From positions 4,836,001-4,900,000 of the forward strand of contig OX597838.1 of the NCBI GenBank assembly GCA_951406725.2: a stretch of DNA of 64,000 nt, in the 5' to 3' direction. The stretch is from Octopus vulgaris. Its lineage: Eukaryota. Within the stretch, counting starts at the first letter, position 1; each line of letters starts with the position of its first letter. Position numbers: made by a program. Shown piece after piece: positions 1 to 9,000 of this stretch.

Positions 1-3000
1 GGTTAAAAATAAATACTTATGTTTATCGGTCCTTCAGTTTTTCTAAGCCTTGCAACAGAACTTAGAAAGGTGGGCCTCTAATCAGACCTTTCGCGATACA
101 TTTAAAGCCAGAAACCCTTCAGTACCTTCACGTAGTGATAATAATAATAATAATAATAATAATAATAATAATAATAATAATAATAATAATAATTATTATT
201 ATTATTATTATTATAACAGCTATCATTACTTATTTATTAAAGTGACGAAATGACCGAGTCGTTAGCGTTGCGGGATAAACTACTTAGCGTCTTTTCATCC
301 GGCACTACGTTGTGGGTTCAAGTTCTACCGACATCAACTCTACCTTTCATATTTTCGGGGTCTATAGAATAAGTACCAGTAGTGAACTGGTGTCGATGTA
401 ACCGACCTAAACCCACCTCCGAAATTGCTGGTCTTGTGATAAAATTTGAAACCATTAATATTTAAATTAATTTTTTGTATTATATGTTTTTTTTTTGTCT
501 AATTATATGAAATGTATTTTCTCTATACTTCTTCGCAATAAGGAAAGAACCATTCTATATAACGACGAAAGCAAAATGTCAGACACAGGAGCGCTGATAT
601 CAAATATAACTTGGAACAATATCGATACCGACCAGAATTATCAGGTGTGCGATGCTGATTCTACGTTGGAAATATCGACAGAAAATTCTTTAGCTCAAGA
701 TCAGAATCAAAGACAACCAACGGAGAGATTGAACATGCTGCCTGCTTCAAACGGATTTCCTGACTGGAAAGAAGACTTCAACATCCATCGGCATTCTACG
801 CAAGGTACACATATATTCCTTTACTTGTTTCAGTAATTTGGCTGCGGCCATGCTGGAGTGAACCTTAACAAGTGAACCGCAACGAGTGAACCGCAACATT
901 TATTCTTTCTAAGCCTAGTACATATTCTATGGGTCTCAGTTGCCCGGCGGCCAAGTTACGGGGACATAAACATACCAACATCGGTTGTCAAGCAATGTTG
1001 GGGGACATACACTGACACAATCAATGACACACACACACATATACACACATATACATACATATATACATATATATATATATATATATATATATTATATATT
1101 TATATATATCTTTATATATATATATATATGCAACGCGCTTCCTTCAGTTTCCGGCTACAAAATCCACTCACAAGGTTTTGGTAGGCTAGAGGCTATTATC
1201 GAAGACACGCAGTGGGACACACACACATATATATATATAATATATATACACACACACACACACACATATATATATAATTATATATATACATATGCATATA
1301 TATGTATACATACATACATATATACATACATATATACATACATAGTGTGGAGATAACTGTTTCAGGTGTTTGTTTACATATGCAGTAAATATCTCTCTAT
1401 CTATCTATCTATCTACATACAAATGCAATCTGTCTGTTTAGCTTAGAATTCAGCAAACATCCTCAAGGAAATAAACCAGTGATCAATGATATTCCGACTG
1501 TAAACATCTAATCCTCTCCGGCTACCAATTGTCCAATATCTACAACTATGTTCACCAAAACCATTTTTTTTAAAACGGTAAACTAGAGTTTGAAAGATAT
1601 TTAACTGCACTTTTTAGTAAATTGAACTACCACTTTGAATATCTTTTTTCATGTCTTATGTATTGTTGTTCATTGAATTTAACCATCCGGTTTACTACTA
1701 CTACTACTACTACTACTACTACTACTACTACTACTACTACTACAATTATTATTATTACTATTATTATTATTATTATTGTTAGTGTTATTATTATTATTAT
1801 TATTGCTGAGCTGGCAGAATCGTTAGCACGTCGGGAGAAATGTTTAGCGGTATTTCATCTCTCTACGTTCTGAGTTCAAATTCCGCCAAGATCGACATTG
1901 CCTTTCATCCTTTCGGGCTCGATAAAATAAATGCCACTTGAGCACTGGGATCGATGCACTCGACTAGTCCTTTTTCCCCAAATTTCAAGCCTTTGCCTTT
2001 ACTAGAACGGATTGTTATTAATATTGCCATTAATTTAACAATTGCGTGGATATTTAATGTCTATATATGTAGTGAGACTATAAACGCTTATCTATCTGTT
2101 TATCTATCTATCTATCTATCTATCTATCTATCTATCTATCTATCTATCTATCTATCTATCTATCTATCTATCTATCTATCTATCTATCTATCTATCTGTC
2201 TGTCTGTCTGTCTGTCTGTCTGTCTATCTATTTATGCACACACGTGTGTGTTTGTGTGCCTGTGTGCGTGCGTGATGTGTGTATTCCTAGCCCAGATTTT
2301 AATGTAGCATTTCGTTAGTTCAAATTTACTCTGCTGGTATAACCTGAATCAAATTGTCCTTGCGCACTTTTCTTAAAAATTTAAACCTTGTTTCTAGCTA
2401 AAATTGAACGTGCTTTTTTTCCATCCACTCCCATTACAGCTACGACTTCATCTTTCTTACCACTTGATGACCAGTATCCAAACTACCCGGTTATGTTCAC
2501 ACGGTCACAACCATTCCCCCGTGAATTGCAGTATGACAGCACTCGTCCATCGGATGACAAACAAAAGGAAGATAAGGCAACTTTCTCTCGTGTTACGTCA
2601 AATGTATCTCCTGAACTTCGATTGCAACCCGCCACGACAAAAGAACCCCGTAATTATGAAGAGATTTTTCGTCGTTCGAACTGTTATCGCACAGCTATGA
2701 TAAACTCGACGGCTTCAACCATTCCGTCAAATTTCCAGCGCAATATTTTTGACTGTTATTCTAATGGAAAGACTCTCAGCGATGCTGTTTTCTCAGGAAA
2801 TACTACCTGTGAAGATTTCGAACCAAATTTTTGCACCGCTTCTTTCGATTCTGAGAAAAACCTCCCTGGACATGAAACTTCCGTTATGGATTACAGCAAC
2901 GAAAATGAGAAAGTTTATAGTTTTCCAAGATTCCTCAAAACCCATAGAAATACGAACCCTACAAGGGATTGTCAGTCAAAATTTTTAAATTTTGATACCC

Positions 3001-6000: not shown

Positions 6001-9000
6001 CGATTTCCCGTCCCCACAAGATTCTGGCATATTTATTGTGTGTGCTATTTTTATTAAACTTTACCTTCCTTATCATTTGCTCTTTTTGCAGATTCCAAGG
6101 AGATACCGCAAAGAGATCAAGCGAAACCGTTTCGGCAACCGTATTTACCCTTTCAACTGGAATTACTGGAAGCCTCTTACAATAGGGAACGGTTTTGTTC
6201 AGGCGAAACCCGGAAAAAACTGGTCAAACGAACTGGCCTTAGTGACAAACAGATTCGTATTTGGTATCAAAATCGACGAGCAAAATCGAAGAAAAAAGGA
6301 AACACATTTCGACACAACTTGCCAATTCGGAATTGTAAAACGCTTCCTGATTGGCTGTCATCTAAAACAGGCGATCACAATGAAGACAAAGTTGATGATG
6401 ATGACGACGACGACGACGATGATGATGATGATGATGATGATGATGATGATGATGGTCTTAGTAGTTCGTTGGTTCCTGTTTCTTTCAAACGTGTACAGGT
6501 GTATCGTCCCTGGTTTCCGTTCGGGATTGACCCGAAGCAATTCTGCCCAGTACATCGACAGGAAACAGCTTCCGGAAGATCCTCTCATTCTTGATATCTC
6601 TCTCTTTCTCTCTCACTGTGTCTCTGTCTGTCTGTCTGTCTGTCTGTCTGTCTCTCTATATGTATATATGTATGTATATACATATATATATATGTATATT
6701 ATGTATATATATATATATATATTTTTTTTTTTAAATATATATATGTATATATATATGTATATATATATGTATATAGACATATATGTATATCTATCTATCT
6801 ATCTATCTATCTATCTATCTATCTATCTATCTATCTATCTATATATATATATATATATATGTTAATGTATTTTATATTTATAAACATGTTTATATTTACA
6901 CAAAATTGGAAGTATAAAGAAATTGAAAATGCACTCGGTGTCCTTGAAGTAGTTTATTTATATTGCCTAAAACTGGCGAAATAGCACCTGGTCATTACGT
7001 CTCTTAAATTTCCTTTCTTCACACGCATACACTCTCAAACACACGCGCGCGCACGCACGCACGCACGCACGCACACGCGCACATATATTTATGAATCTGT
7101 GTATAGCAGGGATAGCTTTGTTTTTTGATACATTATTTGCTCCAACATATATGGTCTTGCGAAGATGTTTTTACCAGATTTGAAGGCGGGCAACTGTCTT
7201 CTAATATAGCATCGGGCCGACCAAACCCTTGCGTGTGGATTTGGATGATGGAAAGCACGTCGTATATATATATATACTTGAAAAAGAATGCGTGTTGTTC
7301 GATCATATAATAATATAAATAATATATAAATATATATATACATACTTACATATATGTACATACCTATATATATAAATATATATATATATATAGCAAAAAC
7401 TAGCAAAAACTGTCCGATGAACGGCAACGGGAAACTCAGAGTAACAGGTTTTGTTGAATTTTCTGCTGCTTTAAATAAAGTATATATATATATATATGTA
7501 TATATACATGCATGTATGGGTACAGAACATTAAAAAAAAAACGTTGGACACAATGAGATACGAAAATGTAAATACAAAAACATAGAAACGAAAATTTTTA
7601 TGGACAACGAAAATAACAACAACAGAGAAACGAGACATATAACAATGAATATTCCCCTTCTTCAATTGTCCCGGTTTCAACTACTCTACGTTCCGAAGGC
7701 AAGGGCAAGACGCGACTTCGTTATATATATATATATATATATATATATATATATATATATATATATATATATACATACATACATATATATATAGAGAGAG
7801 ATTAGGTTTTGCGTGACAACTTGGTGTAGAACTCAATATACGTATGTTTCAGGACACAAGATAAACAATGGTTATGTTATGAAATTCATTACTTTACAGC
7901 TGTTTCTGTTATAAGCTGCAGAGGACTCTTATTTGAGCGCTTGAATATCGTCGTCAATCTTCATCGGGATCTCTAATATGAAGTGCAATTTATTTAGTGA
8001 AAACAATTATATTTTTGCAATATAGAAGGATGGCATTACCAGTGAGAATACCTTTGCTGATAGCAATATATATATTCAGGGGTACGCTGGCTTTTCTTAT
8101 GCGCTATTTTCTCTACTAATCCCCAAAATACCTTAAATGTATTTCATAAGTGATATCCCATCATTCTGCTAATTGAATACTCGGTTTTTGCATTAGATCG
8201 GGTTTTAATAGCATGGTTAGAATAGGTTTCTTCACACTCTCTCACTCTCTCTTGCTCCCTCTCTTTAAGTCCCTCTTGTATGTCCATCTATCTCTCTGTC
8301 TCTCCCTCTCTATCTCTCTCTTCTCTCCAAGCCCTTCATTACTAATCTAATTGCAAATGCTTAAGTGTATGATATCCAAAGCGTTTTCGCATGCCATCAC
8401 TGAAAACTGAGCCTTAGAATCCTTTTGTAGTCCAATCCTAATTACAAAATCCTGTTATCTTTCCCATGCTCCTCACCCTGCCTAATTCCACGTTATTATT
8501 AATGTCCTATTATTAGCACCATCATTTAGCATCACAGAAAACTGTCTTCGATATCGTTCCTCTTTTAATCCGAAACAGCTCAATACTCTTCGCTTTCTCT
8601 GCGCCCCTGCCTTGCCTTATTTTAGCAGCTTAAATATATTACTAGTATTATTATTATTATTATTATTATTATTATTATTATTATTATTATTATTATTATT
8701 ATTATTATTATTATTATTATTATTATTATTATTATTATTGTTGTTGTTATAATTAGCATTATTTCCTAAGGCATTGAGCTGACAGAATCGTTAACACGCC
8801 GGGCAAAATGCATAACGGTGTTTCGTCCGTATTTACGTTCCGAGTTCAAATTCCGTCGAGATTTTGGCTCTACCTTTCATCCCTTTCAATATCGCATAGG
8901 ACAAAGCGCGTAGCGGCATTTCTGCCAGCTCTTTAGGTTCTGAGTTAACGATCTTCATCATTTCGAGTCGATAAAATAAGTCCCAGTCGAGTACTGGGGT

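What the first reader, a model, noticed from the sequence alone, without database searches (positions are those of the whole stretch)
543..6594. Hidden four-exon gene encoding a highly divergent, unassignable homeodomain protein
Seen: four exons with canonical splice sites splice into one 587-aa frame. The ORF track shows the wrong frame over the homeobox. The domain keeps the structural core (R5, L16, Y20, L40, W48, N51, R53, Q50) but has unusual surface residues ([11 protein letters not shown] arm, RERFCSGE loop, WYQNRRAK helix 3). Knowledge: P7-Y8 recalls posterior Hox (Abd-B/Post) arms, RRAK recalls Cdx/NK-like domains, and Y49 occurs in BarH-type domains, so no single family fits from memory. 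No YPWM hexapeptide is visible. Inference: a fast-evolving, possibly cephalopod- or mollusc-restricted homeobox gene, which is of interest for lineage-specific developmental novelty.
Basis: partly seen in the sequence, partly recalled or inferred. Interest (0 to 1): 0.85.

Follow-up and report, generated by a model that had tools for sequence, protein, structure and literature searches.

The report
Divergent orphan homeobox gene in octopus
An intact four-exon octopus gene encodes an unusual homeodomain transcription factor that has clear counterparts only in other octopods and fits no homeobox family I could test, although sequence databases already list it under vague names.

Summary
Exons 576-804, 2398-3231, 3928-4125 and 6092-6594 all have GT-AG borders and matching phases, giving 587 codons plus a stop. 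Exon 4 carries a 60-residue homeodomain at 6121-6300 (Pfam PF00046, 56.2 bits). Its model has the three-helix fold.

The gene is not unknown. Database models exist for O. bimaculoides (LOC128250792, "uncharacterized"), O. sinensis (XP_036355917.1, "Hox-D11-like"), O. vulgaris (CAI9740537.1) and Argonauta hians (GAB1610927.1). These models confirm three of the four junction sites. Both O. bimaculoides isoforms use the acceptor matching window 2440, not 2398, which gives 573 aa. The O. vulgaris model splices out of the homeobox to an exon at 34840.

In a scan of 1.84 billion representatives, the only single-homeodomain hits above 52.4 bits were the octopod orthologues and two records without an organism name. 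The best solved-structure relatives are HOXB13/A13, then aristaless and CDX. Tree tests could not reject a Cdx-like, posterior-Hox-like or Alx4-like position.

It is a real, conserved, fast-evolving orphan homeobox gene. "Unassignable" is supported, "hidden" only in part, and "cephalopod-restricted" is not shown.

The parts
576..804 (+). Coding exon 1. ATG at 576, donor GT at 805-806. The exon may begin at 543, after the AG at 541-542. It holds the conserved N-terminal motif at 600-686.
   Evidence: Identity is 88% to O. bimaculoides X1 over 76 aa and 59% to A. hians over 44 columns.
2398..3231 (+). An in-frame alternative acceptor puts the start at 2440, and that is the site the orthologous models use.
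   Evidence: From 2442 on, identity is 86% to O. bimaculoides and 28% to A. hians; codons 2400-2438 have no orthologous match. No Pfam family.
3928..4125 (+). Coding exon 3, a Ser/Thr/Pro/Ala-rich linker.
   Evidence: Junctions 3231/3928 and 4125/6092 are reproduced in the O. bimaculoides, O. sinensis and O. vulgaris models. Identity is 83% to O. bimaculoides, 97% to O. sinensis and 25% to A. hians.
6092..6594 (+). Coding exon 4. It holds the whole homeodomain, an acidic tract, the C-terminal motif and the stop at 6592-6594.
6121..6300 (+). Homeobox. It encodes 60 residues with no intron and no three-residue loop insertion.
   Evidence: PF00046, 56.2 bits, E 3e-15, cut-off 22.9. AF2 model has helices at residues 19-31, 37-47 and 51-74 of the 91-aa query, with block pLDDT of 88-94 over residues 21-60. 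Foldseek TM 0.93 normalised to the aristaless structure. Identity is 57/58 aligned to O. bimaculoides, 59/60 to O. sinensis and 47/59 to A. hians.
6394..6453 (+). Run of 20 Asp codons after the homeodomain (GAT/GAC microsatellite).
   Evidence: An acidic tract of different length and make-up sits at the same place in O. bimaculoides, O. sinensis and A. hians.
6538..6558 (+). C-terminal motif QFCPVHR, shared with A. hians.
6264..6265 (+). GT inside codon 48 of the homeobox. The deposited O. vulgaris model uses it as a donor.
34840..34903 (+). Distant terminal exon of the deposited O. vulgaris model. It follows a pyrimidine tract and AG, encodes 20 whole codons, and stops at 34901-34903.
5415..5970 (+). 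Internally deleted mariner-type element in intron 3. It has 84-nt inverted ends and a transposase remnant at 5648-5884. It is not part of the gene product.
   Evidence: Inverted repeat I14, 88% complementary. PF01359, 38.2 bits.

Best explanation
This is a functional, lineage-restricted homeobox gene. Its four coding exons are read into a protein of about 573-587 aa whose only recognisable domain is a C-terminal 60-residue homeodomain.

Shown:
- The gene is intact and has the same layout in three Octopus species and Argonauta.
- The homeodomain is conserved far better than the rest of the protein.
- The homeodomain model has the canonical three-helix fold.
- It keeps R5, I47, Q50, N51 and R53.

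Inferred (the roles of these residues are recalled general homeodomain knowledge):
- The protein is a nuclear, sequence-specific DNA-binding transcription factor. Helix 3 lies in the major groove of a TAAT/TTAT-type core, and the K-P-F-R-Q-P-Y arm lies in the minor groove.
- The posterior-Hox/Cdx-like arm suggests a T-rich 5' flank.
- It probably acts without a PBC cofactor, because no hexapeptide is conserved.
- The conserved N-terminal motif (600-686), the acidic tract and the C-terminal QFCPVHR motif are the likely cofactor or regulatory surfaces.

Origin (inferred): duplication of an ANTP-class HOXL-type gene (posterior Hox or Cdx type) followed by fast divergence. It now forms a small family of its own, not an orthologue of a named family.
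For: Gene structure:
- GT-AG borders and matching phases.
- Junctions 804/exon 2, 3231/3928 and 4125/6092 are reproduced in database models of O. bimaculoides (XP_052832682.1 and XP_052832683.1). The last two are also in the O. sinensis and O. vulgaris models.
- No frame break in 4 of 4 species seen.

Constraint: homeodomain identity to A. hians is 80%, against 25-59% in the other parts. To O. bimaculoides it is 98%, against 81-88%.

Domain: Pfam 56.2 bits. AF2 gives three helices. Foldseek finds 45 PDB chains at E <= 0.001; those listed are homeodomains.

Own family:
- phmmer of window 6094-6366 against 1.84 billion representatives gave 2526 hits at E <= 0.001. Among the 150 listed, the only single-stretch hits were P0003 (the window's own product), A. 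hians (106.5 bits), P0029 (73.2 bits, 55% identity) and P0044 (67.5 bits, 51%). All the others were sums over 2-10 homeodomains.
- In a tree of 100 homeodomains, the six family rows form one clade with support 91/87. The octopods have 99/99 and P0029+P0044 have 99/80.

HOXL leaning:
- The family profile against PDB gives HOXB13 64.1 bits, HOXA13 62, aristaless 54.1, CDX1 53.8 and Msx1 51.3.
- P0029 alone gives HOXB13 48.7 bits and CDX1 41.3.
- Holding the family together with the Cdx-like rows costs no likelihood (+0.68, p-AU 0.51).

Canonical genes are already accounted for: passages of PMC9635652 report nine Hox genes plus Gsx, Xlox and Cdx in Argonauta, and say the ParaHox layout is as in octopus.
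Against: - I could see no transcript evidence. The deposited O. vulgaris model splices out of the homeobox at codon 48, and if that were the main transcript the protein would not bind DNA.
- The family clade (91/87) falls short of the tool's threshold for strong support.
- The profile scores include the members the profile was built from.
- Reference homeodomains were only those my searches returned plus PDB chains. No octopod Post1, Post2 or Cdx sequence was in the tree.
- The tree groups used in the AU tests were named after I had seen the tree. Joining the family to Hox13/Hox9-like rows (p 0.155) or to Alx4-like PRD rows (p 0.24) was not rejected either.
- In the free tree the family sits on the side that also holds PRD-like rows, across a 98/90 branch from the Hox13-like rows.
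- DNA specificity and cofactor independence are inference only.
Confidence: 0.72

Rival explanations
1. It is the ordinary, merely fast-evolving orthologue of an already named family. Candidates are a lophotrochozoan posterior Hox gene (Post1 or Post2), Cdx, or one of the spiralian-specific clades defined in earlier surveys.
For: - NCBI names the O. sinensis protein 'Hox-D11-like'.
- HOXB13/A13 are the best solved relatives, and CDX is close behind.
- Grouping with Cdx-like rows is as likely as the free tree.
- Surveys that included O. bimaculoides exist (PMC6118893 and PMC7566022; passages). I could not open their supplementary lists.
Against: - Identity to HOXB13 structures is only 44-46%, and to a CDX2 structure 31%.
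- A true Hox13 homeodomain (P0030) scores 109.8 bits against HOXA13, whereas the window scores 42-43.
- Nine Hox genes and all three ParaHox genes are already reported in Argonauta.
- The motifs given for NKL Clade I (KEKR) and PRD Clade VI (SPQQVRS) are absent.
- Lopx genes are mistaken for Otx/ceh-37 by annotation pipelines, not for Hox.
Confidence: 0.15
2. It is a PRD-like (paired-like, Q50) class gene, not an ANTP/HOXL derivative.
For: - The highest whole-chain PDB scores are for DUX4, and aristaless ranks just after Hox13.
- The top Foldseek match is aristaless.
- In the free tree the family lies on the side of the 98/90 split that holds the Alx4-, Mix- and Dmbx-named rows.
- A clade with Alx4-like rows is not rejected (p 0.24).
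Against: - The DUX4 scores are sums over two domains. The best single DUX4 domain reaches 42.4 bits, against 64.1 for HOXB13.
- The forced PRD grouping costs 13.0 log-likelihood units, while the Cdx-like grouping costs none.
- There is no paired domain or other PRD companion domain.
- From recall only: PRD-class homeodomains usually have Y-P-D at positions 25-27 and V47, whereas this one has F-C-S and I47.
Confidence: 0.15
3. The family is not confined to cephalopods. It is older and was lost or missed elsewhere, and P0029 and P0044 are its members in another animal group.
For: - P0029 and P0044 are 55% and 51% identical over the homeodomain. They share the P-[FY]-R-x-P-Y arm, the S/F-G-E loop, L-V-x-x-T-G-L and QNRRAK, and they join the octopod clade at 91/87.
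- Their flanks show no likeness to the octopod N- and C-terminal motifs (read).
Against:
- Clade support is moderate, and long-branch attraction among derived RRAK-type homeodomains is possible.
Confidence: 0.3
4. It is a decaying or non-functional locus, that is, a pseudogene or a gene-prediction artefact.
For: - I saw no expression data.
- The locus is full of microsatellites, SINE-like repeats and a mariner remnant.
- One deposited model breaks the homeobox.
Against: - The frames are open in 4 of 4 species.
- The homeodomain is far better conserved than the flanks.
- All splice sites are canonical.
- The DNA-contact residues are kept.
Confidence: 0.05

Closest known systems
Posterior Hox homeodomains (vertebrate HOXB13/HOXA13; Abd-B)
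   Same: - They are the best single-domain match among solved structures, both for the family profile (64.1 and 62 bits) and for the unnamed relative P0029 (48.7 bits).
- P7-Y8 in the N-terminal arm, Y20 and F25 are shared (read from the listing of P0030/P0042, which one search identifies as Hox13-type).
- Same fold.
   Different: - Only 44-46% identity, whereas a real Hox13 domain scores about 110 bits against HOXA13.
- A54 (RRAK) where the Hox13-type rows have V54.
- The free tree separates them by a 98/90 branch, although the AU test does not reject a joint clade (p 0.155).
- Linkage to the Hox cluster could not be tested.
Cdx (ParaHox) and Cdx-like derived homeodomains
   Same: - An aromatic residue at position 4 followed by R5, then Y8, and QI[KR]IW[FY]QNRRAK in helix 3 (listing of P0018, which one search identifies as closest to CDX1/2).
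- Holding the family with the Cdx-like rows costs no likelihood.
   Different: - 31% identity to a CDX2 structure.
- CDX ranks below Hox13 and aristaless for the window itself (31.8 bits).
- A canonical Cdx is already reported in octopods (passages of PMC9635652).
Lineage-specific 'novel' lophotrochozoan homeobox clades (Paps et al. 2015, PMC5322547; Lopx of Barton-Owen et al. 2018, PMC6118893)
   Same: It is the same kind of thing: a homeobox gene that diverged until its parentage is obscured, has no large companion domain, and is restricted to part of Lophotrochozoa (section 12 of PMC5322547; section 13 of PMC6118893).
   Different: - None of the motifs given for those clades is present.
- Those surveys list no HOXL-type novel clade in Table 3.
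- Named members here are octopods only.
- The sequences of those clades are in supplements I could not open, so a direct comparison is missing.
DUX4 / paired-like Q50 homeodomains
   Same: RRAK/RRAR in helix 3, Q50, and an F-x-x loop after helix 1. These give high local scores.
   Different: The scores are sums over two domains. There is no second homeodomain here (motif scan) and no PRD companion domain.

Membership tests
Homeodomain superfamily (PF00046) | Profile score above the curated cut-off | tested here: met
   56.2 bits against a cut-off of 22.9, E 3e-15, covering profile positions 3-57 of 57.
Homeodomain superfamily (PF00046) | Three-helix fold with a long recognition helix | tested here: met
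   AF2 helices at 19-31, 37-47 and 51-74; block pLDDT of 88-94 over residues 21-60. Foldseek TM 0.83-0.96 normalised to the target for the engrailed, aristaless, HOXB13 and Antp chains.
Homeodomain superfamily (PF00046) | Core and DNA-contact residues L16, W48, N51 and R53 (list recalled), with typical length of 60 and no TALE insertion | tested here: met
   All are present. Position 49 is Y here and in O. bimaculoides, and F in O. sinensis and A. hians.
Posterior Hox (Hox9-13 / Abd-B / Post1 / Post2) | High homeodomain identity to group members | tested here: not met
   44-46% to HOXB13 and 36-39% to Abd-B. The window scores 43.1 bits against HOXB13, whereas a true Hox13 domain scores 109.8 against HOXA13. 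Octopod Post1 and Post2 were not available for comparison.
Posterior Hox (Hox9-13 / Abd-B / Post1 / Post2) | Monophyly with posterior Hox homeodomains in a tree | tested here: inconclusive
   Not together in the free tree (98/90 branch between them). The forced clade is not rejected (p-AU 0.155).
Posterior Hox (Hox9-13 / Abd-B / Post1 / Post2) | Position within or beside the Hox gene array | not testable with these tools
   The window holds no other homeobox and no Rfam microRNA. No cephalopod genome collection was on hand.
Cdx (ParaHox) | High homeodomain identity to Cdx | tested here: not met
   31% identity to CDX2. 31.8 bits for the window and 53.8 bits for the family profile.
Cdx (ParaHox) | Monophyly with Cdx-type homeodomains | tested here: inconclusive
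   The forced clade with the Cdx-like rows (P0018 and its neighbours) is as good as the free tree (p-AU 0.51). However, these rows are themselves derived tandem or multi-domain proteins, not canonical Cdx.
PRD-like class | Grouping with paired-like homeodomains; a paired or other companion domain | tested here: inconclusive
   No companion domain. The forced clade with Alx4-like rows is not rejected (p 0.24), at a cost of 13.0 lnL.
NKL Clade I / PRD Clade VI of Paps et al. 2015 | KEKR at the C-terminal end of the homeodomain; SPQQVRS in the sequence (motifs as given in section 12 of PMC5322547) | tested here: not met
   Neither motif occurs in any of the four exon translations.
Lopx (Barton-Owen et al. 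2018) | Distinct homeodomain that pipelines mistake for Otx/ceh-37, plus a Lopx-specific C-terminal motif | not testable with these tools
   The sequences are only in a figure and in supplements. The pipeline name here is Hox-D11-like, not Otx, which speaks against membership but is not a test.

The most novel reading that the evidence does not exclude
This is an octopod-born (or coleoid-born) HOXL-type homeobox family. It would have arisen by duplication of a posterior-Hox or Cdx-type gene and then diverged radically. It gained its own N-terminal and C-terminal motifs and an acidic tail. It may also make a second isoform that drops the recognition helix by splicing from codon 48 to an exon 28 kb downstream. 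If so, it is a new regulator added to the cephalopod developmental toolkit, outside the atomised Hox and ParaHox sets.
Probability: 0.3. Interest if true: 0.55.

Novelty: new member of a known kind. Interest (0 to 1): 0.4.

Why it matters
Lineage-specific homeobox genes are one of the few classes of new regulators that can be tied to new body plans. In oyster, 31 of 136 homeobox genes are of this sort and are used early or late in development (abstract and section 12 of PMC5322547). Cephalopods are known for protocadherin and zinc-finger expansions (recalled), not for new homeobox genes.

An orphan HOXL-like gene conserved from Octopus to Argonauta would therefore be a concrete, testable candidate for cephalopod-specific patterning.

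In practical terms, the deposited O. vulgaris model is truncated at the 5' end and broken inside the homeobox. The label 'Hox-D11-like' is also misleading. Both should be corrected before homeobox counts or single-cell 'homeobox codes' are drawn from these annotations.

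Tried and rejected
- Word-index searches with exon 4 and with the Argonauta homeodomain region found only the orthologues: 3 of 149 candidates and 4 of 52 candidates. They gave no named reference families.
- The profile search (58 hits among 2112 candidates) added O. sinensis and a mixed bag (Mix-, Dmbx-, DUXA-named proteins, plant HD-Zip, nematode, insect). 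No single family led.
- Pfam on exons 1-3 found nothing at E <= 1.
- The ESM Atlas search on exon 2 (2442-3230) gave a best score of 0.75, below the tool's 0.9 mark.
- Rfam found 0 matches and the tRNA scan 0 genes in the 64 kb, so there are no Hox-cluster microRNAs to use as landmarks.
- I considered a hexapeptide. FPDW in exon 1 is FPEW in O. bimaculoides, but Argonauta has no W there, so I rejected it as a conserved PBC motif.
- Literature: searches for 'Hox-D11-like', XP_036355917, LOC128250792 and A0A0L8GCM6 found 0 papers. 'Divergent homeobox' plus 'cephalopod' found 1 paper, which is not about this gene. Searches listed no title or abstract opening about this gene. The passages I read in five papers (PMC6118893, PMC9635652, PMC9712504, PMC5322547, PMC7566022) do not mention it.
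- The octopus genome paper PMC4795812 is not held.
- Not used: complex prediction (no binding claim is made) and genome contigs (bacteria and archaea only).
- Closed: metagenome contigs, viral contigs and supplementary files.
- The joined 587-aa product was never built, searched or folded. Every search used single exons or natural database proteins.

Full report
WHAT IS THERE

The window has no N. It is AT-rich, microsatellite-laden animal DNA with 35.5% GC.

Gene structure. Their lengths are 229, 834, 198 and 503 nt and the phases fit, giving 587 codons and a TGA. The joined product was never made, so anything that needs the whole spliced protein (a full-length fold, a full-length search with this species' own sequence) is left open. 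Where a full-length protein was useful I used natural database proteins.

Signal against chance. The frame that holds exon 2 is the longest of the 13 high-complexity frames among 133 frames of at least 100 aa in the window. Its 284 open codons have a chance probability of about 1e-9 at this base composition. The true frame is 6058..6594.

The domain. Only exon 4 has a Pfam match: Homeodomain PF00046, 56.2 bits, E 3e-15. Exons 1-3 have none at E <= 1. An AlphaFold2 model of window 6094-6366, made with a five-row alignment, has mean pLDDT 73.8, block pLDDT of 88-94 over residues 21-60, and three helices. Foldseek matches it to aristaless, HOXB13, engrailed, BARHL2, Abd-B and Antp homeodomains with target-normalised TM scores of 0.8-0.96. 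A six-frame motif scan finds no second homeobox in the 64 kb.

IT IS ALREADY IN THE DATABASES

Database models found with exon 4 and with a family profile:
- O. bimaculoides LOC128250792, "uncharacterized protein": isoform X2 (XP_052832683.1, 563 aa) and isoform X1 (XP_052832682.1, 614 aa). A 147-aa UniRef entry, A0A0L8GCM6, holds just the homeodomain and tail.
- O. sinensis XP_036355917.1, "homeobox protein Hox-D11-like" (284 aa).
- O. vulgaris CAI9740537.1 (390 aa).
- Argonauta hians GAB1610927.1 (662 aa).

Source species. The O. vulgaris protein is encoded by the window letter for letter: 246 of 246 residues in exon 2, with the rest read off. The O. sinensis protein differs at several residues. 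The window is therefore most likely O. vulgaris.

What the models confirm and where they differ:
- They confirm the donor at 804 and the junctions 3231/3928 and 4125/6092.
- Both O. bimaculoides isoforms begin exon 2 at the site matching window 2440. This is an in-frame acceptor 42 nt downstream, behind a better pyrimidine tract. The 13 whole codons in between match nothing in any orthologue. The likelier product is therefore 573 aa, though both acceptors may be used.
- The 5' end is open. There is an in-frame ATG at about 507, and isoform X1 adds 51 residues upstream, of which residues 25-51 align to window 486-575.
- The O. vulgaris model starts inside exon 2. It leaves the homeobox at a GT in codon 48 (6264) and ends in a small exon at 34840-34903, which has a good acceptor. 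That is the sense in which the gene was "hidden".

CONSTRAINT

Identity to O. bimaculoides / A. hians, by part:
- Exon 1: 88% / 59%.
- Exon 2 from 2442: 86% / 28%.
- Exon 3: 83% / 25%.
- Homeodomain: 98% / 80%.
- Tail: 81% / 42%.

All four species keep an open frame. Outside the homeodomain, Octopus and Argonauta share an N-terminal motif (window 600-686), a WLSS patch just after the homeodomain, an acidic tract of variable length (20 Asp codons here, 6394-6453) and QFCPVHR near the C-terminus. I could not compute dN/dS because I had no orthologous DNA.

WHAT FAMILY

Scan of representatives. phmmer of window 6094-6366 against 1.84 billion representatives gave 2526 hits at E <= 0.001. Among the 150 listed, the single-stretch hits are:
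- the window's own product;
- Argonauta, 106.5 bits;
- P0029, 73.2 bits, 55% identity, 266 aa;
- P0044, 67.5 bits, 51% identity, 221 aa.

Everything else in the list is a sum over 2-10 homeodomains, and the list ends at 52.4 bits. P0029 and P0044 are known only by UniParc handles (UPI00074E894E, UPI00074F357A) without an organism. I did not try to work out their source. They share with the octopod proteins the P-[FY]-R-x-P-Y arm, the G-E loop after helix 1, L-V-x-x-T-G-L in helix 2 and QNRRAK in helix 3.

Solved structures:
- Family profile: HOXB13 64.1 bits, HOXA13 62, aristaless 54.1, CDX1 53.8, Msx1 51.3. The DUX4 chains rank higher only as sums of two domains.
- Window alone: HOXB13 43.1 bits, HOXA13 42, aristaless 41.7.
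- P0029 alone: HOXB13 48.7 bits, CDX1 41.3.
- Benchmark: a real Hox13 domain (P0030) scores 109.8 bits against HOXA13.
- Identity of the window's model to HOXB13 is 44-46%, and to a CDX2 structure 31%.

Tree. I extracted homeodomains from all 208 session proteins plus exon 4, which gave 561 domains and 251 distinct near-full segments. I kept the 100 best by profile score and built an IQ-TREE tree on 60 columns.
- The six family rows form one clade (91/87; 92% of 200 bootstrap trees).
- The octopods have 99/99 and P0029+P0044 have 99/80.
- The family's neighbours, with weak support (86/76), include rows closest to CDX (P0018) and multi-homeodomain proteins of amphioxus.
- The Hox13-type rows lie across a 98/90 branch.

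AU tests. None of the following was rejected: family plus Cdx-like rows (lnL +0.68, p 0.51), plus Hox13/Hox9-type rows (-11.6, p 0.155), plus Alx4-like PRD rows (-13.0, p 0.24). The groups were named after I had seen the tree, and 60 columns resolve little.

Conclusion on family. "No single family fits" stands, with a lean towards HOXL (Cdx or posterior Hox). The name "Hox-D11-like" is only a best-hit label.

Literature (passages read):
- Argonauta has nine Hox genes, with Hox2 and Hox4 missing as in O. bimaculoides. It also has Gsx, Xlox and Cdx arranged as in octopus (PMC9635652). This gene is therefore extra to the canonical set.
- Lophotrochozoans are known to have many "novel" homeobox clades (PMC5322547, section 12) and the Lopx family (PMC6118893, section 13). 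The motifs given for NKL Clade I and PRD Clade VI are absent here. Lopx is mistaken for Otx, not for Hox.
- The gene lists of these surveys, which include O. bimaculoides, are in supplements I could not open. They may already classify the 147-aa model.
- My searches for the gene's identifiers found no paper.

HOW IT MOST LIKELY WORKS

Shown: an intact homeodomain with R5, I47, Q50, N51 and R53, and the canonical fold.

Inferred from general homeodomain knowledge (recalled):
- The protein is a nuclear transcription factor that reads a TAAT/TTAT-type core with helix 3 and the minor groove with its arm.
- The posterior-Hox/Cdx-like arm suggests a T-rich 5' flank.
- No hexapeptide is conserved, so it probably acts without a PBC cofactor.
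- The acidic tail and the two conserved terminal motifs are the candidate regulatory or partner surfaces.
- If the 6264-to-34840 splice is real, it would give a protein without the recognition helix.

WHAT STAYED UNCHECKED

- Transcript evidence.
- Synteny with the Hox and ParaHox genes.
- Presence of the gene in squids, cuttlefish, Nautilus and other molluscs.
- The organism of the two unnamed relatives.
- dN/dS.

The metagenome and viral contig collections and paper supplements were closed. The genome collection on hand holds only bacteria and archaea.

VERDICT

This is a real, conserved, fast-evolving orphan homeobox gene of octopods. It is already catalogued under uninformative or misleading names and is mis-modelled in the species the window comes from. 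It is a new member of a known kind and of moderate interest.

Noticed in passing
window 6264 and 34840-34903: The deposited O. vulgaris protein (CAI9740537.1) is reproduced exactly only if splicing leaves the homeobox at a GT in codon 48 and joins a 64-nt terminal exon 28 kb downstream. That exon has a strong pyrimidine tract and an AG. This is either an annotation artefact or an isoform that lacks the recognition helix.
   Followed up: partly
window 2398 versus 2440: There are two in-frame acceptors 42 nt apart for exon 2. The orthologous O. bimaculoides models use the downstream one, and the 13 whole codons between them have no orthologous match.
   Followed up: partly
window 5415-5970 (intron 3): An internally deleted mariner-type element. 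It has 84-nt inverted ends (88% complementary) around a transposase remnant at 5648-5884 (PF01359, 38.2 bits).
   Followed up: yes
window 236-430, 1806-2000, 5225-5420: Three same-strand copies of a SINE-like repeat of about 150-190 nt (mean column identity 73%). They lie upstream of exon 1, in intron 1 and in intron 3. ARAGORN and Rfam call nothing there.
   Followed up: partly
window 6265-6267 (homeodomain position 49): Position 49 flips between Y (this window, O. bimaculoides, P0029) and F (O. sinensis, A. hians, P0044). The unusual Y49 is therefore a one-base toggle, not a family character.
   Followed up: yes
window 6394-6453: The acidic tract is a GAT/GAC microsatellite. Its length and interruptions differ between all four species, so it is probably polymorphic.
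   Followed up: partly
window 13400-16200 and 46500-47200: Long purine/pyrimidine-skewed simple repeats (GC skew 0.65 at 14-16 kb) give open frames of several hundred low-complexity codons on both strands. These dominate any ORF list of the window.
   Followed up: no
window 27054-28054, 31855-32232, 33315-33650, 36184-36591: High-complexity open frames without introns. The three tested (31855-32232, 33315-33650, 36184-36591) have no Pfam match above its curated cut-off. From recall they look like retroelement remnants. No other cellular gene was seen between 7 and 64 kb.
   Followed up: partly
proteins P0005-P0017, P0156, P0011 (hits, not in the window): The top of the representative search is filled with predicted proteins carrying 4-10 tandem divergent homeodomains, for example from Branchiostoma. 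These are either fused models of tandem gene arrays or true multi-homeodomain proteins.
   Followed up: no
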